Source: a virus. From it: a stretch of 64,000 nt of DNA. The position numbers were made by a program, and so were the translations under genes. Below are positions 10,557 through 50,637 of the stretch, one piece after another (positions within the stretch are counted from its first letter, which is position 1; every line of letters starts with the position of its first letter). The stretch spans positions 43,207 through 107,206 of IMG/VR virus record IMGVR_UViG_3300043496_000175; one strand, 5' to 3'. The notes under the pieces were generated by a model that was given only the letters and a program-made list of their open reading frames with translations, ran no database searches and was not told the DNA's origin.

Positions 10557-11026
10557 CCTTTGAACAGGCAATCGCGATCATCGTCGTCGCCATCATCACG
10601 GCGGCGGGGAGTATCTACGCAGCACGGAAGTCAGCGAAAAACGACCAGAACCGGATCAACCAGGCCATGGTCACGGTGCTCGGGGTGGAGCGCGAAAAGA
10701 TCGCGGCGGAACTGGATCGGGCAACCATCCGGACCAACGCTACGAATGAGCAGTTGGAAAAGGTGGGGACCGACTTGAGAGCTGCGAAAGAAGAGTTGAC
10801 CGAAGTCAGGATCACTCACAGGGAAGCCATAGCCGAGAAGGACGCCACGATCAGGGAACGTGACGCTACGATCCGGGAGGTACAGGCTCGTACCATCGAG
10901 CTGGAAGCCATGTTGAACGCCTGCCGAACCGAGCTGGGACAGGTGCGTGCAGAGCTGCAGAACGCCTTGACGTTGATCCACCAGCAGGCGCAGCAGCTTC
11001 AAACGCAAAGGAACGGCCAGTCCTAG
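10553..11026 (+). CDS. single-TM coiled-coil membrane protein, lysis module
   Basis: N-terminal TM, long heptad region, directly upstream of endolysin. Confidence 0.7.
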   Translation: MTFEQAIAIIVVAIITAAGSIYAARKSAKNDQNRINQAMVTVLGVEREKIAAELDRATIRTNATNEQLEKVGTDLRAAKEELTEVRITHREAIAEKDATIRERDATIREVQARTIELEAMLNACRTELGQVRAELQNALTLIHQQAQQLQTQRNGQS

Positions 11027-43487: not shown

Positions 43488-43609
43488 GGCTCAGACCCTC
43501 CAACAAGTTGTTAGCTGTGAGGGTATCGCAGTGGGGCAACTAGACAACGTGGCTCGTCACGTCAACCGATAGAGCACCCTGCCCAAGGGTGCGCCTAGCC
43601 GCCAGGCAG

Positions 43610-43682
43610 TCTCGGTGGCAGGACTCGAACCTGCAATCTTCCGCTCCCAAAGCGGATGGGATCCCAATTTCCCTACACCGGG
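43610..43682 (-). tRNA. trnP: tRNA-Pro(UGG)
   Basis: CCCGGTG TA GGGA-AATTGGGA-TCCC A TCCGC-TTTGGGA-GCGGA AGATT GCAGG-TTCGAGT-CCTGC CACCGAG A; C2-A71 mismatch; no encoded CCA. Confidence 0.9.
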
Positions 43683-43938: not shown

Positions 43939-44150
43939 ACCTCCATTCTGATCTGATAAATGCGCGCTCTGGTCATTCCAGTGCGCTCAGCGATGTCGGC
44001 TACTGCGGCCCCCGCCTGCAGTGCTGCCTTGATCGCCTGGGCTTGCACGCTCCGAGCAGCCTCCGCATCCGCGTCCGACCGACGCCGAGCTTGGGTTGCA
44101 AGCTCGACGTCGATCAGGGCAGCGCGGGGACTGATGATCATGTCCGCCAC
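43935..44150 (-). CDS. small HTH DNA-binding protein
   Basis: AI..A..AG....IA..TG.TRARIYQI. Confidence 0.7.
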   Translation of the reverse strand: MADMIISPRAALIDVELATQARRRSDADAEAARSVQAQAIKAALQAGAAVADIAERTGMTRARIYQIRMEV

Positions 44151-44830
44151 CTCTCATGATCCTGAGTTCGATAGCGTTGGATGATCTCGTCTGCAAACTT
44201 CAGAAGATCTTCGACCCGTTGACCTGGTAAGTGCTGTTTGGCCCAGAGTTCTAAGTTTTCTGGACGATTATCAAGACGAATACCGTTTCGGTGGTGCACC
44301 GTTTCTTGAGGTAAAAGTTCTCTACCGATTATTTGTTCCATCACTAATCGATGCTCTTGCTTATACTTCCCAGGTCCGAGATAGATCATTCGGTATCCCT
44401 GGCTAGTAATTACTTCTTTCTGTGCTGTAGATCTTCCGTTGTCAAGGTTTGCTTCTCCACCTCGACGCCAACGTTGGTAGTGCATTGTGCACCACCCGCG
44501 CCTGCCAGCGCCTATGATTCGATCACATGTTTCATGCTTACAGATGGTACCCTCTGGTACTGAAACCCATGCACGAGCGCCAGCTTCTGGGTCTCCGTGC
44601 TTGCGCCAACGTAACCAATGTGTTGAACACCAAGTTCGACTTACTGCTCGTTTAGGGCAATCTTTGATTGAACATATCTTTTGCTGTGGACGCTGGCCAC
44701 GGAATCGACCTTTGAGCGGATCGCCATATTTCTGCCAGTGCACGTAATGGATTCGACAATACCCTTTCGCCTTGCTCAGTAGATCACATGACTCTACTGA
44801 GCAAGGCGGCAAAGGCGGTAGTCCAGGCAT
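44138..44830 (-). CDS. HNH homing endonuclease
   Basis: Three CxxxxC..C..HY/W repeats; EHRLVME..GR.L...ETVHHRNG.R.DN..ENLELW; visibly AT-richer than flanks. Confidence 0.9.
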   Translation of the reverse strand: MPGLPPLPPCSVESCDLLSKAKGYCRIHYVHWQKYGDPLKGRFRGQRPQQKICSIKDCPKRAVSRTWCSTHWLRWRKHGDPEAGARAWVSVPEGTICKHETCDRIIGAGRRGWCTMHYQRWRRGGEANLDNGRSTAQKEVITSQGYRMIYLGPGKYKQEHRLVMEQIIGRELLPQETVHHRNGIRLDNRPENLELWAKQHLPGQRVEDLLKFADEIIQRYRTQDHERWRT

Positions 44831-46476
44831 CAGTGAACCTGAAGATCCTTTCGTTCCCAGGGCCAGTTCTGAGAAAGCCCACGTTCGATGGACTCAATCA
44901 AACGGAACGATACATCGCTCAGGCCGCCGAACGTGTGCCGCTTACGGTTCCCCGAGCGTCCCTGGGCTGCGCGGTAACCCGCGAAGTTCCAGACGTACAC
45001 CGGAGCCTTGGTGGCCGCCAGAGCATCGTCCACCGCTGCCCAGGTAGGCAGACCCTGGTTGGTAGCCCAGGCCGGGGCGTACTGCTCATCAGTCAGCAGC
45101 ACGATCCGGTCCTGCCCGGTGTAGGTGTTCTGAATCGCCTGGATGGTGTTGGTGCCGCCCAGACCCGGGAACATCTGACCGATATAGCCCGCCCGGGAAC
45201 CGTCCACCTGAACATCAGCCATGCCCTTGGCCAGCTTGAGCAACGAACCCCGAACCTGGAACGGCTTGGTCTCCCAGCCAAAGCCGTACAGGTCCACCTG
45301 CTCCGAGCGCCGAGCCAGCGCCGCCCCGAAGATGCAGGCCGCGTCCGCCCACCGCAGATTCGACATCTCGGTGAGGGTGTGGTCATACATTGAGCCGGAC
45401 AAATCCGTCAGGATCAGCGTCCGACCGCCGAGCACGGGCACATTGCTCAGCGACAGGTCCAGCGCGGTCTCCAGGATCGGACCCCACGCCGTCACGGTGT
45501 CGGACTCATCCACTGCCCGGTAGGCGTTGAGGAAGCTCATCGGGAACATCCGGGACTTGGCGATCTCGTCCGGATCCGTCAGCTTGTCCTCGATCAACCG
45601 GACCGAGGTCCGGCTGATCTTGGACTGGTCGAAGTTCCGGAGGTTCCGGACCAGGGCAAAGATCCCCATGGACGGGATGATCTTGTCCCAGGACGGACCG
45701 TCCATCGCGGACTGCTTCCAGCCCGCGAACGACTCCCAGGTCATGCCTGCCTCCTGGAGCTGACCGGCGGTGACTTCGCTGCGCGCTGCCACCGGCATCT
45801 CCATGAGCGCCTTGCGGGCACGCACCATGCCGAGGATCTCGGGAGTCTCGTTCGTCCCGTACCGGTTGTCCAGGGAGAACTTGAACAGTGCGTTCTGCCA
45901 CTGCTTCTCGGACTTGGGGTGACAGATCTGCAGGACGTCCGCGAACCGGAAGGCCTTGGAGTCGGTGTCCCACTTGAGGTAGGAACGCTCGTTCCACATC
46001 CGGTCCAACGCATCAGCGATGCCACGCTTGACCGGCTTGGGGACGTTCCGGCCGTAGGTGGCGAACCAGTACGCCAGCATCTCGCCCGGCTCATCCGCCC
46101 GCTGCAGGGCAGCGGAGATGATCTGCCGGTTGCCCTGAATGCCTCGGGACAGACGCTCGTGCACGGCGTCAGCCGCAGCCACGATGGACGCCGAGCGGAT
46201 GTTGGCCTCGCCGCGCAGGTAGCCGATGAAGCCGGTGATCCAGTCGGTGTCCGGAGACAGTTCCCGCACGAGGTGCGTGAAGCGCTCATCCCGGGCCCGG
46301 CCGTCCTCGTGGAACGCGCCCTTGGGCTCGCTCATGTTGGAGACGGCCAGGAGGAACAGCTCTGAGCGCTGATCACGGGAGACGCCACGGGCACCGAGTG
46401 CGGTGCGGGCGGGGGCCTCGATCGTTGCGATCGGAGACCGGACGCCGAGGTGAGGGGCGGAGTTGAAGCGAGCCAC
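44830..46476 (-). CDS. rsr: Ro60/TROVE-domain RNA-binding protein with C-terminal vWA domain
   Basis: ELFLLAV, RADEPGE.LAY, PKPVKRG.AD, D...HPK, TWE, M...AL.RNLRN, DLSGSM MIDAS, GGTN, TDEQ, GGLSD; GTG 46476 with GAAAGG SD. Confidence 0.95.
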   Translation of the reverse strand: MARFNSAPHLGVRSPIATIEAPARTALGARGVSRDQRSELFLLAVSNMSEPKGAFHEDGRARDERFTHLVRELSPDTDWITGFIGYLRGEANIRSASIVAAADAVHERLSRGIQGNRQIISAALQRADEPGEMLAYWFATYGRNVPKPVKRGIADALDRMWNERSYLKWDTDSKAFRFADVLQICHPKSEKQWQNALFKFSLDNRYGTNETPEILGMVRARKALMEMPVAARSEVTAGQLQEAGMTWESFAGWKQSAMDGPSWDKIIPSMGIFALVRNLRNFDQSKISRTSVRLIEDKLTDPDEIAKSRMFPMSFLNAYRAVDESDTVTAWGPILETALDLSLSNVPVLGGRTLILTDLSGSMYDHTLTEMSNLRWADAACIFGAALARRSEQVDLYGFGWETKPFQVRGSLLKLAKGMADVQVDGSRAGYIGQMFPGLGGTNTIQAIQNTYTGQDRIVLLTDEQYAPAWATNQGLPTWAAVDDALAATKAPVYVWNFAGYRAAQGRSGNRKRHTFGGLSDVSFRLIESIERGLSQNWPWERKDLQVH

Positions 46477-46500
46477 CAGAGTAGCCTTTCTGCTCGTAGA

Positions 46501-46604
46501 GTGATGGTGAGAAATGATCGATTTCAGGAAGACCCCTACCCGGTCTAAGCCGGAGGATCCGCGTAACAAGCGGAAGTACCTGACACCCTTCGCACCACCA
46601 TCAC
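46501..46604 (-). ncRNA. Y-RNA-like element, unit 1 (nearest rsr)
   Basis: GTGATGGTG/CACCATCAC closing stem; GTGCGAAG; TCAGG/CCTGA; TACTTC; TTTCT. Confidence 0.75.
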
Positions 46605-46617
46605 CAGTCGAGTAGAA

Positions 46618-46747
46618 GAGAGTGAGAAAAAGACGGTTCTGGTTATTGACTGCTCTGCCGTTGAGCTACCGCACCGAAGTGCGACTCGGAATCGAACCGA
46701 GAACCTATCTCTTACAAGGAAGTAACCAGTACCTGCGCACCACTCTC
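46618..46747 (-). ncRNA. yrlA: YrlA-type Y RNA with circularly permuted tRNA-like domain, unit 2
   Basis: GAGAGTG/CACTCTC stem; T arm CTCGG-TTCGATT-CCGAG; acceptor stem closed by TTCG; D arm TA-GCTC-AACGGCA-GAGC; beside Ro60 gene. Confidence 0.88.
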
Positions 46748-46763
46748 GAAGACTGAAAGGTGA

Positions 46764-46863
46764 GGCAGCGAGAAAGATCGGACACGGTTCCTGAGCGTCG
46801 AAGCCCAGCCAGAGCAAGGCTCTGGTTTCTGCCTGAAGTAACCGTTTCCTGCGCACCGCTACC
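46764..46863 (-). ncRNA. Y-RNA-like element, unit 3
   Basis: GGTAGCG/CGCTGCC; GTGCGCAG; ACGGTT/AACCGT; TACTTC; TTTCT. Confidence 0.75.
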
Positions 46864-46879
46864 GTGCTATTTAGTTAGG

Positions 46880-46997
46880 AGCCAGCGAGAAATGATGAAG
46901 TTCAGACGGTACTATCTTGCGGACTTTCCTTGTGTCCACCAATCAACGGGGCGAGGCCCCTGGCAGGAAGTATCTGATCCTCTTCGCACCGCTGGCT
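46880..46997 (-). ncRNA. Y-RNA-like element, unit 4
   Basis: AGCCAGCG/CGCTGGCT; GTGCGAAG; TCAGA/TCTGA; TACTTC; TTTCT. Confidence 0.75.
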
Positions 46998-47014
46998 TAC
47001 TTGTTCAGTTGTTG

Positions 47015-47088
47015 AGGCAGTGAGAAAAATCGACGTCCCGGCGTAGTTTCACCAGAAGAAGTAGCCGGAGGTCTTCGCACCACTGCCT
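47015..47088 (-). ncRNA. Y-RNA-like element, unit 5 (minimal, first transcribed)
   Basis: AGGCAGTG/CACTGCCT; GTGCGAAG; CCGGC/GCCGG; TACTTC; TTTCT. Confidence 0.75.
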
Positions 47089-47098
47089 TGCTGAGATG

Positions 47099-47127
47099 AC
47101 TATTGCACTCCGGTCAACCGGTGTCAA
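47099..47127 (-). promoter_or_regulatory. putative promoter for Y RNA array/rsr operon
   Basis: TTGACA-17-AATAGT, with TGn before the -10, about 10 nt upstream of unit 5. Confidence 0.5.
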
Positions 47128-48044: not shown

Positions 48045-48458
48045 TCATGCGGCAAGCTGCCGCCGGAAGATCTCGATCGCGGTGGTGCACTTGACGCACG
48101 GGCAGGTAGGCCAGTCGTCCTTCTTCTTGGTGTTGCAGCGGGCATGGACATTCTTGAGGATGTTCCACGCTGCATCCGGGCCACCCTTGGCCCGAGGGAT
48201 GATGTGATCCCTGGTAGGCCGCAGGTGCTTGTCGGTCTCATCGATGTGACCACCGCAGTAGTGGCAGTTCGCTGGCTTCATCAGCACGGGGAACTCTGTG
48301 CCCTCCACGATCTTGCTTACCTTGCAAGATCCGCAGTTCAAACAGATCCACTTCTCGGTTCCGTTTGGGTAGACCAGATGTTCCACGAGCACCCGCCGCT
48401 TCTCGGGGAAGCAATGCCCGCTGCTCTGTATGAGCGGTCCCGCTCTTGGCTCTGTCAT
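48045..48458 (-). CDS. HNH endonuclease
   Basis: CHYCG...TRDHIIPRAKGG...N...H.RCN.KK. Confidence 0.85.
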   Translation of the reverse strand: MTEPRAGPLIQSSGHCFPEKRRVLVEHLVYPNGTEKWICLNCGSCKVSKIVEGTEFPVLMKPANCHYCGGHIDETDKHLRPTRDHIIPRAKGGPDAAWNILKNVHARCNTKKKDDWPTCPCVKCTTAIEIFRRQLAA

Positions 48459-48468
48459 AGACAGTACC

Positions 48469-48969
48469 CTAGACTGCGGTAGACAGCTCCGCAAGTAGTT
48501 TCTCGGAGGTTCCTGGCATCTCCCGGTCCAGCAGGTAAACGTAAGCTGCCATGAACTTCTGGTCGTGCTTGGCCTCGACACCCACCAGGTGATGCGCCAG
48601 CTCATGCAGGAGCACCATCTGCTGCACCGGCACCGGCACCATCAGCACCCCGGAGTGATAGCGCGGCAGACCGTCCAGCGTGGCCCGGACATCACACGGC
48701 CAGGACGCTCGGGAGTAGTCCGTAGCCCCGGCCAGAACTCCCCTGCAGTAGGTCTGCGCCTCGGGTAGGGACCGCAGCCAGTACTGGCTTCGCATCCGTG
48801 CGTACAGGCGGCCCTCAGCTCGGTAGAGGGACTGCCGGTAGAACCCGCCGGGGGCGGCAGGCTTGTCCGGGCCGTCCGTCTTCCGCTTGAGCGGGGTCGT
48901 CAGCTCACGGACTATCTGGCGGCCCTTGCGCTGCACGTTGCGGATCGGGCGGAACTTGTCATAAGGCAT
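48469..48969 (-). CDS. HExxH metallopeptidase-like protein
   Basis: VLLHELAHH.....HD..F...Y..LL. Confidence 0.75.
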   Translation of the reverse strand: MPYDKFRPIRNVQRKGRQIVRELTTPLKRKTDGPDKPAAPGGFYRQSLYRAEGRLYARMRSQYWLRSLPEAQTYCRGVLAGATDYSRASWPCDVRATLDGLPRYHSGVLMVPVPVQQMVLLHELAHHLVGVEAKHDQKFMAAYVYLLDREMPGTSEKLLAELSTAV

Positions 48970-49743: not shown

Positions 49744-50637
49744 TCATGCCTCGCCCCGGATGAACTTGAGCGCCGCTTCCTTGCGGTGCGTCAGGATCGG
49801 GGTCTGGATGTCGGCACCGTTGAACGGGGCCGGACGCTCGGTCACCAGACCGCAGATCCGGTCGTTCTGGTCGAAGCGCATGGCGATCTTCCGTCCCCGC
49901 CAGCGGGCCACCACGTTGGTGGCGTCTTCCTGCAGGATCTCCCACAGGTTTGCGGTGAGAACTTCCTGGATCTCTGCTCGTGTTGTGCTCATGGGCATCC
50001 TTTGCTCAGAGGGTTCCCTTGAGTCTACACGGAAAGTCGCTAGTCTGTCTAGCTTCTCCTGGCGCTTGCGGTGATGGGATTCCCGCTTGCGTTGTAGCAC
50101 CTCTTCGGGAGTAGGGGACCGGCGCTTCGGCACGGCATGCCAGTAGCTGCAAACTTGGCAGTGCTCGACGTCCGCCCATTTGCCGGTCGCGGCAAGATGC
50201 TCGATAACCGCGTCCTTGGTGAGGAAGCGTTCTCGCTTTGCGTGCGTCCGCTGCGCGGACCGCTCTTTCAGAGCGGCCCGGCAGGGCTCGCAGATCGGCG
50301 TCTTGTTGGGGCCGGTGTGGTGGGCGTTGTAGCCGGTCGTGGTGCCGTGCAAGGTGCTGGAGACCTTGGTGGTCGAGGGCTTGGCCCGGGACTTGCGTGG
50401 CTTGGCGGGAGCTGCGCGCTTGTCGGTGTACTTCACCGAGCGGTGCACGCTGCGCGGCATCACCACCTTGCGGGGTGCCTTCTCCTCGGGCGGCTCGGGG
50501 CGCTCCCACTCCAACGCGTCCAGGATCTTCTGTACCCGCTCCTCCTCAACCCCGGCTGCGGCGGCTGCCTCGGCCTCGGATGCTCCGTTGTTGATTGCCT
50601 CCAGGACGGTGCTGCGGATCTGCTCGGCTTTGGTCAC
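49744..50637 (-). CDS. hypothetical DNA-binding protein (HTH plus Zn motifs)
   Basis: N-terminal HTH-like segment; HGT..GY..H...C.PCR; C..C..WH. Confidence 0.55.
   Translation of the reverse strand: MTKAEQIRSTVLEAINNGASEAEAAAAAGVEEERVQKILDALEWERPEPPEEKAPRKVVMPRSVHRSVKYTDKRAAPAKPRKSRAKPSTTKVSSTLHGTTTGYNAHHTGPNKTPICEPCRAALKERSAQRTHAKRERFLTKDAVIEHLAATGKWADVEHCQVCSYWHAVPKRRSPTPEEVLQRKRESHHRKRQEKLDRLATFRVDSREPSEQRMPMSTTRAEIQEVLTANLWEILQEDATNVVARWRGRKIAMRFDQNDRICGLVTERPAPFNGADIQTPILTHRKEAALKFIRGEA

What the first reader, a model, noticed from the sequence alone, without database searches (positions are those of the whole stretch)
46563..47057. Four of the five Y-like RNAs carry different anticodon-like loops at or near the same position
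Seen: directly after the conserved TACTTC, a 7-nt Y-U-N-N-N-R-N loop closed by short pairing occurs in unit 2 (CUUGUAA, 46712-46718, UGU = Thr), unit 4 (CUGCCAG, 46960-46966, GCC = Gly) and unit 5 (UUCUGGU, 47051-47057, CUG = Gln). Unit 1 has UCCGC-UUGUUAC-GCGGA (loop 46563-46569, GUU = Asn), shifted 3 nt, with the same 5-bp stem as the phage tRNA-Pro anticodon arm. Unit 3 does not fit. All four are ordinary bacterial anticodons, and in unit 2 the loop is spaced 7+5+5 nt before the T stem as in a tRNA. Inference: Ro60-protected anticodon decoys or sensors for tRNA-cleaving defences (PrrC, RloC, VapC-type nucleases), or cassettes derived from captured tRNA fragments. Stems in units 2, 4 and 5 are only 3-4 bp, so this is a hypothesis.
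Basis: partly seen in the sequence, partly recalled or inferred. Interest (0 to 1): 0.8.

Follow-up and report, generated by a model that had tools for sequence, protein, structure and literature searches.

The report
Y RNAs displaying tRNA anticodon arms
Five small RNA genes in front of a phage Ro60 gene are Y RNAs, and three of them (a fourth doubtfully) carry a faithful copy of the tip of a tRNA anticodon arm, a feature I found to be widespread in actinobacterial and phage Y RNAs but missing from the published model of these RNAs.

Summary
All coordinates are correct.

Among 284 distinct YrlA-type units from viral contigs and Actinomycetota genomes, 120 have a perfect 5-bp stem and 7-nt loop at tRNA spacing before the T arm. 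Shuffles give 6.7. On 86 distinct arms the loops keep Y32 (83), U33 (84), R37 (77) and A38 (80), while the triplet takes 31 values. G37 goes with G36 (18 of 21 against 4 of 125). Many loops are exact 7-mers of genuine tRNA loops of the same anticodon. Units without a T arm show the same hairpin in 73 of 135 cases (shuffles 6.7).

A new detail emerged. Positions 42 and 43 pair by Watson-Crick covariation with the two bases after the D arm. The unit is therefore a complete permuted tRNA, opened between 28 and 29 of the anticodon stem, where the Ro60 handle sits. The literature I could read calls this hairpin a "V arm" and says YrlA lacks an anticodon loop.

Function is untested. A decoy for anticodon-reading proteins is the best guess. 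Other agents of this scan reached a similar reading on other DNA (e1-5706600).

The parts
47099..47127 (-). Promoter-like site (TTGACA, 17 nt, TG-AATAGT) just upstream of the first unit
   Evidence: 10 of 12 matches. 2 sites were found in the region against 0.1 expected. This is a consensus match only.
47016..47087 (-). Unit 5, a short Y RNA: basal stem GGCAGUG/CACUGCC, GGUGCGAAG, second stem, UAC, then the hairpin UUC-UUCUGGU-GAA (loop 47051-47057)
   Evidence: The loop equals the genuine tRNA-Gln(CUG) loop of Actinomycetota. The same loop occurs in unit types of L215 and L051.
46881..46996 (-). Unit 4, a Y RNA handle with a long apical part. The claimed loop CUGCCAG (46960-46966) is doubtful.
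   Evidence: closing pairs are C-G, U.G, U.G, with pair probability 0.00. It competes with the GGGGC-CUC-GCCCC hairpin.
46764..46863 (-). Unit 3, a Y RNA handle. It has UUC-AGGCA-GAA (a 5-nt loop, not anticodon-like) plus two further hairpins.
46618..46747 (-). Unit 2, a YrlA-type Y RNA, that is, a complete circularly permuted tRNA. Order of parts: UAC, UUC (29-31), loop CUUGUAA (46712-46718), GAGAU (39-43, 46707-46711), V loop AGGUU, T arm (46685-46701), UUCG-capped acceptor-like hairpin (46669-46684), D arm (46652-46666), A26, and G27' U28' (46650-46649) pairing with U43 A42.
   Evidence: Rfam YrlA 37 bits, E = 7e-6, below the gathering score of 69. ARAGORN miscalls 46676-46746 as tRNA-Thr(tgt). 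Composite stem.
46500..46605 (-). Unit 1, a Y RNA handle plus the arm UCCGC-UUGUUAC-GCGGA (loop 46563-46569), followed by the hairpin CCGG-CUUAGA-CCGG
   Evidence: (-6.4 kcal/mol). The stem is identical to the anticodon stem of the window's tRNA-Pro.
44830..46479 (-). Ro60/Rsr (TROVE) gene, starting about 20 nt downstream of unit 1
   Evidence: Pfam TROVE 1.7e-12. Annotated 'Ro-like RNA binding protein' in Streptomyces and Gordonia phages at 38-43% identity. 2799 homologues.
43609..43682 (-). Genuine tRNA-Pro(UGG) of the phage, used as the comparison arm
   Evidence: Rfam tRNA 59.9 bits, ARAGORN, sequence.

Best explanation
SHOWN. The five units are Y RNAs, partner RNAs of the Ro60 ring protein encoded directly downstream. 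They are probably made from one promoter as one precursor.

Each unit has a constant handle: a basal stem, GGUGCG(A/C)AG, a second stem and UAC. Straight after UAC comes a small hairpin. In units 1, 2 and 5 that hairpin is a copy of the tip of a tRNA anticodon arm, with 3-5 pairs closing a 7-nt loop that has Y32, U33, a free triplet and R37.

In the YrlA-type unit 2 these top pairs stack on two further pairs made by the strand that leaves the D arm. The unit is therefore a whole tRNA body: D arm, anticodon arm, variable loop, T arm and a capped acceptor stem. It is circularly permuted and opened between positions 28 and 29 of the anticodon stem, where the Ro60 handle is attached.

INFERRED. 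The RNAs present look-alikes of particular host tRNA anticodon loops (Thr-UGU, Gln-CUG, Asn-GUU-like) to proteins that read anticodon loops, while Ro60 sits a few base pairs away. The most likely use in a phage is competitive mimicry, a decoy for host anticodon-directed nucleases or other tRNA-targeting defences. I rate the structural part at about 0.9 and the decoy part at about 0.35.
For: Y RNA identity:
- The TROVE gene lies directly downstream on the same strand.
- The basal stems differ between the units while staying complementary.
- Unit 2 matches Rfam YrlA.
- The handle motif recurs, often in arrays of 2-6 units, in at least 120 viral contigs and at least 120 Actinomycetota genomes.
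- Streptomyces phage Alone3 also has five such units before its Ro gene.

Anticodon-arm identity:
- 120 of 284 distinct units have a perfect 5-bp stem and 7-nt loop at tRNA spacing. Shuffles give a mean of 6.7 and a maximum of 13. Other loop lengths give at most 17.
- On 86 distinct arms: Y32 83, U33 84, R37 77, A38 80, with 31 distinct triplets.
- The stem is 86.7% paired, with compensatory changes at two pairs and 0 of 500 shuffles reaching the observed values.
- G36 goes with G37: 18 of 21 against 4 of 125, Fisher 2e-16, in 16 sequence backgrounds.
- 24 of 56 distinct loops are exact 7-mers of real tRNA loops with the same anticodon. Permuted flanks give a mean of 16.5 and a maximum of 23 in 5000 permutations.
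- Genuine tRNA-Asn has CUGUUAA and genuine tRNA-Gln has UUCUGGU in the same genomes.
- Of 135 units without a T arm, 73 carry a YU-NNN-R hairpin of at least 3 bp at this site, against 6.7 in shuffles.

Composite stem:
- 43 pairs with post-D +1 in 102 of 105 units: G-C 83, C-G 15, A-U 2, U-A 1 and one wobble pair.
- 42 pairs with post-D +2 in 105 of 105 units: G-C 68, A-U 28, C-G 6, U-A 3.
- Permuted controls give means of about 71-73 and maxima of 82 and 78.

Function, from the literature only:
- YrlA has been proposed as a competitive inhibitor of an anticodon nuclease (PMC7790460).
- A Ro60-like phage protein counters a defence system and sits beside 'tRNA' genes (PMC11482910).
- Within arrays no triplet is repeated: 0 of 68 pairs against 2.8 expected, P = 0.045.
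Against: - No experiment or gene context here ties the loops to any nuclease.
- The neighbours of bacterial Ro60 genes in three loci showed no RNA-repair or toxin partner.
- Bacteria carry the same arms, so the role cannot be purely anti-defence.
- Short units include UCA and UUA triplets, which are stop-codon readers, so the triplets are not restricted to ordinary anticodons.
- Only about 40-57% of YrlA-type units have a canonical arm. Others have a shorter or different segment.
- Salmonella YrlA works without any anticodon loop (10.1101/312249).
- The units counted are related to one another, so the P values overstate independence.
- The sample was ascertained with the exact motifs TACTTC and GGTTCRA, so it covers one subfamily.
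- Thermodynamic folding alone predicts the arm only for unit 1.
Confidence: 0.5

Rival explanations
1. Structural relic. The arm is what remains of the tRNA (or tRNA dimer) from which Y RNAs arose. It is kept only because it completes and stabilises the tRNA-like fold, the triplet is free to drift, and no partner reads it.
For: - The triplet is hypervariable within otherwise identical scaffolds.
- Stop-type triplets occur in short units.
- No conserved partner gene was found.
- Salmonella YrlA lacks the loop.
- The dimeric-tRNA origin model predicts an anticodon arm upstream of the T arm (10.1101/312249).
Against: - Positions 32, 33, 37 and 38 are conserved, G37 is coupled to G36, and the flanks match the cognate real tRNA. 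These are rules that, in established tRNA biology, serve decoding and TrmD modification rather than folding.
- The arm tip is also kept in short units that have no tRNA body to stabilise.
- A34 is avoided, occurring in 2 of 86 arms.
Confidence: 0.3
2. Sensor or repair platform rather than decoy. The displayed loops are cut by the same nucleases that cut tRNAs. The cut Y RNA then changes Ro60 activity or recruits decay or ligation enzymes to damaged tRNAs.
For: - Rsr and Y RNAs are co-encoded with RtcB/RtcA in some bacteria, and that operon responds to tRNA halves (PMC7790460).
- Ro60 and Y RNA tether PNPase (PMC4201824, PMC12135203).
Against: - No RtcB or other ligase gene was seen among the genes scanned next to this array or next to the three bacterial loci checked.
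- Salmonella YrlA was reported not to be a substrate of the anticodon nuclease.
Confidence: 0.12
3. Repeated copying (gene conversion) of tRNA anticodon arms into a Y RNA scaffold, so that resemblance to real loops reflects recent history rather than selection.
For: - The U1 stem UCCGC/GCGGA is identical to the stem of the phage's own tRNA-Pro.
- Many loops are exact 7-mers of real tRNAs.
- Ro genes of some phages sit inside tRNA clusters.
Against: - In YrlA-type units the stem is Y-specific. UUC belongs to the handle motif, and 42-43 covary with the unit's own post-D strand.
- Real tRNA-Asn genes of the same genomes have different stems around the same loop.
Confidence: 0.06
4. Chance or annotation artefact. 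The loops are coincidences, or unit 2 is simply a tRNA-Thr gene.
For: - ARAGORN calls tRNA-Thr(tgt) at 46676-46746.
- The unit 4 match is weak.
- Three of five hits in homologous repeats is not significant on its own.
Against: - The family-wide statistics.
- At its gathering score the Rfam tRNA model finds only the tRNA-Pro.
- In unit 2 the D arm lies 3' of the T arm and the acceptor stem is closed by UUCG.
Confidence: 0.02

Closest known systems
YrlA / YrlB bacterial and phage Y RNAs (Rfam RF02553; Chen et al. 2014, PMC4201824; Wang et al. 2018, 10.1101/312249)
   Same: - Encoded just upstream of Ro60 on the same strand, several per locus, processed from one precursor.
- The 5' and 3' ends form a stem carrying a CGAA-type Ro60 motif.
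- A conserved YUAY motif (here UAC).
- The T arm, closed acceptor-like stem and D arm come in that order.
   Different: The published model calls the hairpin after YUAY a variable ('V') arm, and the crystal-structure paper states that YrlA lacks the anticodon loop.

Here and in homologues the hairpin is a 7-nt anticodon-type loop. Positions 42-43 behind it pair with the strand after the D arm. It is therefore the upper anticodon arm, and the handle is inserted at 28/29.

The short units carry the arm tip alone. Unit 2 scores below the Rfam gathering score (37 against 69).
Genuine tRNAs of Actinomycetota and their phages
   Same: - The same 7-nt loops: Gln UUCUGGU, Thr CUUGUAA, Asn CUGUUAA, Pro UUUGGGA.
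- A 5-bp anticodon stem.
- A 4-5 nt variable loop, then a T arm.
- The G36-G37 rule.
   Different: - Circularly permuted.
- The acceptor stem is capped (UUCG in unit 2), with no free CCA end.
- The Ro60 handle is inserted in the anticodon stem.
- Gene finders and GenBank records nevertheless call some of them tRNAs.
Permuted tRNA genes of the red alga Cyanidioschyzon merolae (mentioned in 10.1101/312249)
   Same: The 3' half of the tRNA precedes the 5' half in the gene.
   Different: Those are matured into functional linear tRNAs. Nothing suggests that here: the acceptor stem is capped and the handle is retained. Not tested.
Phage Ro60-like proteins with neighbouring 'tRNA' genes (Bas63 gp130, PMC11482910; Thermus phage phiLo Yrl1/2, PMC12135203)
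   Same: A phage Ro60 homologue with adjacent small RNAs. An anti-defence role (Bas63) or PNPase recruitment (phiLo) has been proposed.
   Different: The protein subfamilies and hosts are different. No anticodon arms are described in those papers.

Membership tests
Y RNA (Ro60 partner RNA; YrlA/YrlB type) | Encoded next to a Ro60/TROVE gene on the same strand | tested here: met
   The array at 47087-46500 (minus) ends about 20 nt before the TROVE ORF at 46479-44830.
Y RNA (Ro60 partner RNA; YrlA/YrlB type) | 5' and 3' ends pair into a stem that carries the Ro60-binding motif GNCGAAN0-1G near the 5' end | tested here: inconclusive
   The terminal stems are present and differ between units while staying complementary. 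The motif reads GGUGCGAAG (U1, U4, U5) or GGUGCGCAGG (U2, U3). That is CGAA-G, or CGCA-GG, preceded by UG rather than GN: a near match, not an exact one.
Y RNA (Ro60 partner RNA; YrlA/YrlB type) | Physical binding to Ro60 | not testable with these tools
   Needs co-immunoprecipitation or a gel-shift assay.
YrlA (Rfam RF02553) | tRNA-like domain with T arm, closed acceptor-like stem and D arm in that order, scoring at or above the family threshold | tested here: inconclusive
   Unit 2 has all three elements and aligns to model positions 22-89, at 37 bits and E = 7e-6. This is below the gathering score of 69. Units 1, 3, 4 and 5 lack the domain.
tRNA gene (Rfam RF00005) | Cloverleaf in canonical order with an open acceptor stem, scoring over the threshold | tested here: not met
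   At the gathering score only the tRNA-Pro at 43610-43682 is found. In unit 2 the D arm follows the T arm and the acceptor stem is capped by UUCG. The ARAGORN call at 46676-46746 borrows GUGCG of the handle as its acceptor strand.
tRNA anticodon arm (as a structural module) | 5-bp stem, 7-nt loop with Y32, U33 and R37, followed by a 4-5 nt variable loop and a T stem | tested here: met
   Met in the family. In the window it is met for U2 (composite stem) and U1 (arm only). U5 has the top 3 bp only, U4 is doubtful and U3 does not meet it.
Anticodon-nuclease decoy or inhibitor | Binds or competes for an anticodon nuclease and protects tRNA or the phage | not testable with these tools
   This is only a literature suggestion for YrlA (PMC7790460).

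The most novel reading that the evidence does not exclude
Y RNAs of Actinomycetota and their phages are Ro60-docked displays of authentic tRNA anticodon arms. They are either whole permuted tRNAs opened at 28/29 of the anticodon stem or bare arm tips. Phage arrays present several different anticodons at once, as an exchangeable set of tRNA look-alikes. These are read in an anticodon-specific way by nucleases, modification enzymes or synthetases in the phage-host conflict over tRNAs.
Probability: 0.4. Interest if true: 0.85.

Novelty: new variant of a known kind. Interest (0 to 1): 0.72.

Why it matters
What the tRNA-like module of bacterial Y RNAs binds has been an open question since 2014. 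The literature I could read treats the module as a tRNA elbow without an anticodon loop.

A conserved, covarying anticodon arm that obeys tRNA-specific rules points to partners that read anticodon loops. That makes the question directly testable through modification mapping, nuclease competition and loop swaps.

It also gives a revised secondary structure for a large subfamily, with the handle inserted at 28/29 of the anticodon stem. It fits the proposed origin of YrlA from tRNA.

There is a practical consequence too. Such units are being annotated as tRNA genes in phage genomes, which inflates tRNA counts.

Tried and rejected
- A DNA similarity search of the array against the phage collection found nothing.
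- The search for related loci with the Ro60 protein in viral contigs found no relative.
- The MAFFT alignment A1 mixed the 4-nt and 5-nt variable-loop classes and was not used for pair counts. The gapless set A2 was used instead.
- My first test of pairing between the hairpin's 3' strand and the post-D strand used 5-nt windows and showed nothing. The per-position test then showed that only 42 and 43 pair with that strand.
- Minimum-free-energy folding does not recover the tRNA-like domain of unit 2, so it is no guide there.
- The neighbours of bacterial Ro60 genes gave no functional clue, and PHROGs and Pfam scans of the phage neighbours gave only HNH endonucleases and a WhiB-like protein.
- The 2020 Annual Review on bacterial Ro60 and the Burroughs and Aravind RNA-repair paper were not held. 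I therefore cannot exclude that the anticodon arm is mentioned there.
- Kissing of the loops with complementary tRNA anticodons was considered and set aside. The complementary anticodons would mostly need A34, which bacterial tRNAs rarely have. This rests on my own knowledge.
- Aminoacylation of unit 2 was set aside because its acceptor-like stem is a 6-bp hairpin capped by UUCG.
Full report
**What is in the window**

All features lie on the minus strand. A TROVE-domain (Ro60/Rsr) gene occupies 46479-44830 (Pfam 1.7e-12). Its homologues in Streptomyces and Gordonia phages, at 38-43% identity, are annotated as Ro-like RNA-binding proteins. The record is a 107-kb IMG/VR virus contig.

Directly upstream lie five tandem units: U5 47087-47016, U4 46996-46881, U3 46863-46764, U2 46747-46618 and U1 46605-46500. 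They are preceded by a promoter-like site at 47127-47099.

Each unit has:
- a terminal stem whose sequence differs from unit to unit but stays complementary;
- the motif GGUGCG(A/C)AG;
- a second stem;
- the invariant UACUUC;
- a variable apical part;
- UUUCU before the closing strand.

U2 matches Rfam YrlA, covering the T arm, closed acceptor-like hairpin and D arm. It scores 37 bits, E = 7e-6, below the gathering score of 69. ARAGORN miscalls part of it as tRNA-Thr(tgt).

These are Y RNAs in the sense of Chen et al. 2014 (PMC4201824). That paper also describes the conserved YUAY motif, which is the UAC seen here, and a less conserved "V" hairpin upstream of the T arm. It reports that M. smegmatis YrlA and YrlB are processed from one precursor upstream of rsr.

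**The observation**

- U1: UCCGC-UUGUUAC-GCGGA is a stable arm (-6.4 kcal/mol). Its stem is identical to the anticodon stem of the window's tRNA-Pro, UCCGC-UUUGGGA-GCGGA.
- U2: CUUGUAA is followed by 5 + 5 nt and the T stem.
- U5: UUC-UUCUGGU-GAA.
- U4: CUGCCAG can be closed only by C-G, U.G and U.G, and it competes with a strong GGGGC-CUC-GCCCC hairpin (pair probability 0.00). I regard it as unsupported.
- U3 has the same UUC/GAA stem around a 5-nt loop.

Taken alone, three matches among five homologous repeats prove little.

**Homologues**

The close-relative routes failed. Scanning for the handle motif worked. GGTGCGMAG-N-TACTTC, and the same motif followed by a T loop, occur in more than 120 viral contigs and more than 120 Actinomycetota genomes. 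The genera include Streptomyces, Amycolatopsis, Actinomadura, Rhodococcus and Nocardia. The units often sit in arrays of 2-6.

These scans place no condition on the segment between TACTTC and the T stem except its length.

Among 284 distinct YrlA-type segments:
- 120 form a perfect 5-bp stem (G.U allowed) and a 7-nt loop placed 4-5 nt before the T stem, which is tRNA positions 27-48.
- Shuffles give a mean of 6.7 and a maximum of 13.
- Any other loop length gives at most 17.

On 86 distinct arms the loop reads C/U32 in 83, U33 in 84, purine 37 in 77 and A38 in 80. Positions 34-36 take 31 different triplets, and A34 is nearly absent at 2 of 86.

On a gapless alignment of all 98 distinct segments of one length class, the stem is 86.7% paired. 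Compensatory changes occur at two pairs, in 30 and 22 sequences. No shuffle out of 500 reaches the observed values for cells paired or covariation.

**The loops obey tRNA-specific rules**

G37 occurs in 18 of 21 arms with G36 but in only 4 of 125 others (Fisher 2e-16). The G36-G37 arms come from 16 different stem and variable-loop backgrounds. From established knowledge this is the G36-G37 pattern of tRNAs that carry m1G37 made by TrmD.

Genuine tRNA genes in the same bacterial genomes confirm the match. They have CUGUUAA for Asn and UUCUGGU for Gln(CUG), and the phage's own tRNA-Pro has UUUGGGA. The same 7-mers appear in Y RNA arms with those triplets.

I built a small, noisy reference of 154 tRNAs found by ARAGORN in the fetched loci. 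Against it, 24 of 56 distinct Y loops are exact copies of a real loop with the same anticodon. Permuting the flanks among loops gives a mean of 16.5 and never more than 23 in 5000 trials.

For the window this means:
- the U2 loop equals a tRNA-Thr(UGU) loop;
- the U5 loop equals the tRNA-Gln(CUG) loop;
- the U1 loop differs from the real Asn loop UUGUUAA of my reference set only at position 38.

The stems, however, are not copied from tRNAs. Real tRNA-Asn genes have other stems around the same loop.

**Units without a tRNA body**

Of 135 distinct units lacking a T arm, 73 have a hairpin of at least 3 bp with a 7-nt Y-U-NNN-R loop right after UACUUC (shuffles: mean 6.7, maximum 17). Of these, 34 have at least 4 bp (shuffles: mean 1.9, maximum 6).

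The typical short unit reads UAC-UUC(N0-2)-loop-(N0-2)GAA-AYCAC. This is the U5 type, and near-identical units occur in L215, L176, L195 and L187.

**A revised structure**

I first compared the hairpin with an alternative in which its 3' strand pairs with the strand after the D arm, as Rfam's model does for a few pairs. I found no signal with 5-nt windows.

A position-by-position test on 105 distinct units gave a clear answer:
- Position 43 pairs with the first base after position 26 in 102 of 105 units: G-C 83, C-G 15, A-U 2, U-A 1 and one wobble pair.
- Position 42 pairs with the next base in 105 of 105 units, always Watson-Crick: G-C 68, A-U 28, C-G 6, U-A 3.
- Permuted controls give means of about 71-73, with maxima of 82 and 78.
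- Position 41 does not pair with that strand beyond chance. It pairs with the C of UACUUC.

The anticodon-like stem is therefore composite. Pairs 27-43 and 28-42 use the strand coming from the D arm, exactly as in a tRNA. Pairs 29-41, 30-40 and 31-39 use the strand coming from the handle.

The unit is thus a complete tRNA, circularly permuted and opened between 28 and 29, with the Ro60 handle attached there. Because 42-43 lie 3' of the hairpin, the hairpin cannot be a variable arm, which in a tRNA lies 3' of position 43.

Window U2 fits this model without a mismatch: G27'.U43, U28'-A42, then U.G (or C-G), U-A and C-G, closing CUUGUAA.

**Comparison with the literature**

Chen et al. 2014 model this hairpin as a "V" arm. 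Wang et al. 2018 state that Salmonella YrlA lacks the anticodon loop, and that the conserved UA kinks the stem standing in for the anticodon stem. The reviews and papers I could search do not mention an anticodon arm in Y RNAs. Two key reviews were not available.

The dimeric-tRNA origin model quoted by Wang et al. would predict an anticodon arm just upstream of the variable loop and T arm. My data fit that prediction.

Other agents of this scan reached a similar reading on other DNA (e1-5706600 and related notes). I treat those as leads only.

**Function**

Nothing here tests function. The conserved flanks, the G36-G37 coupling, the match to cognate loops and the retention of the arm tip in body-less units all argue that something reads these loops as anticodon loops.

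Three indirect points bear on what that might be:
- Hughes et al. 2020 suggested that the YrlA tRNA-like domain might competitively inhibit an anticodon nuclease.
- A phage Ro60-like protein next to "tRNA" genes counters a defence system in a genetic screen.
- Within arrays no triplet is repeated: 0 of 68 pairs against 2.8 expected, P = 0.045.

I therefore favour display of tRNA look-alikes as decoys for anticodon-directed proteins, at roughly 0.35. A neutral structural relic stands at about 0.3. Sensor or repair roles and recent copying are less likely.

Points against a purely anti-defence role:
- The same arms occur in bacterial chromosomes, with no conserved partner gene.
- Stop-type triplets occur in some short units.
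- 40-60% of YrlA-type units lack a canonical arm.

**Limits**

The sample was ascertained with exact motifs, so it covers one subfamily. The sequences are related, so the P values overstate independence. The tRNA reference set is small. No probing or expression data exist for this phage.

Noticed in passing
window 46676-46746 (-); L362:1277-1350 (Streptomyces phage Alone3, record 10920-10993): Y RNA units are called as tRNA genes. ARAGORN calls window unit 2 tRNA-Thr(tgt). 77 ARAGORN calls in the fetched loci start in a Y handle. GenBank annotates Alone3 gene 36 as tRNA-Ser(gct), although it carries the handle (GAUGCGUAG...UACUUC) and its D arm lies downstream. The Rfam tRNA model gives it 29.5 bits, just over the threshold of 29. 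tRNA counts of actinophages may therefore be inflated.
   Followed up: partly
L362:790-1420 (Streptomyces phage Alone3): A named, cultivated phage whose Ro60 is 43% identical also has five Y units before its Ro gene. The handle is the variant GAUGCG(U/C)AG. The array lies inside a tRNA gene cluster, directly after a genuine tRNA-Asn(GUU).
   Followed up: partly
window 46639-46651 and homologous units (e.g. L027, L054, L207): A conserved motif follows the D arm in YrlA-type units: R-CC(U)-UACGU(Y), or CCUUGUC. It lies opposite the 5' UAC(UU). Both junction linkers thus contain UAC. Their role is unexplained; it could be a junction fold or a Ro60 contact.
   Followed up: no
viral loci L009-L219 against bacterial loci L220-L339: Triplet usage differs between the sets. 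Among perfect arms, GUU is 15 viral and 3 bacterial, and GCU is 16 and 1. CAU is 1 and 6, CUC 2 and 5, and GAU 1 and 4. This may be phylogeny or may be meaningful.
   Followed up: no
window 46670-46675 (-): GGUGCG, the handle motif, occurs a sixth time as the 3' strand of the UUCG-capped acceptor-like hairpin of unit 2. The handle's GUGCG can therefore pair with the hairpin's CGCAC. That is how ARAGORN builds an acceptor stem. It could be chance or an alternative fold.
   Followed up: no
window 44138-44830 (-) and 48045-48605 (-); 49744-50637 (-): Two HNH endonuclease genes flank the Ro60 and Y RNA block (Pfam HNH_3 8e-10; HNH 1e-6). A WhiB-like regulator domain lies further upstream.
   Followed up: no
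window 46911-46938 (-): A second, weaker promoter-like site (TGGACA, 16 nt, GATAGT; 9 of 12 matches) lies inside unit 4.
   Followed up: no
window 43609-43682 (-): By eye, the phage tRNA-Pro(UGG) appears to have a C2-A71 mismatch in its acceptor stem. It nevertheless scores 59.9 bits with the Rfam tRNA model.
   Followed up: no
L195, L146 (viral contigs): Some Y units carry an anticodon-type hairpin (CCGGU-CUGAACA-ACCGG) as a second hairpin deeper in the apical part, not directly after UACUUC.
   Followed up: no
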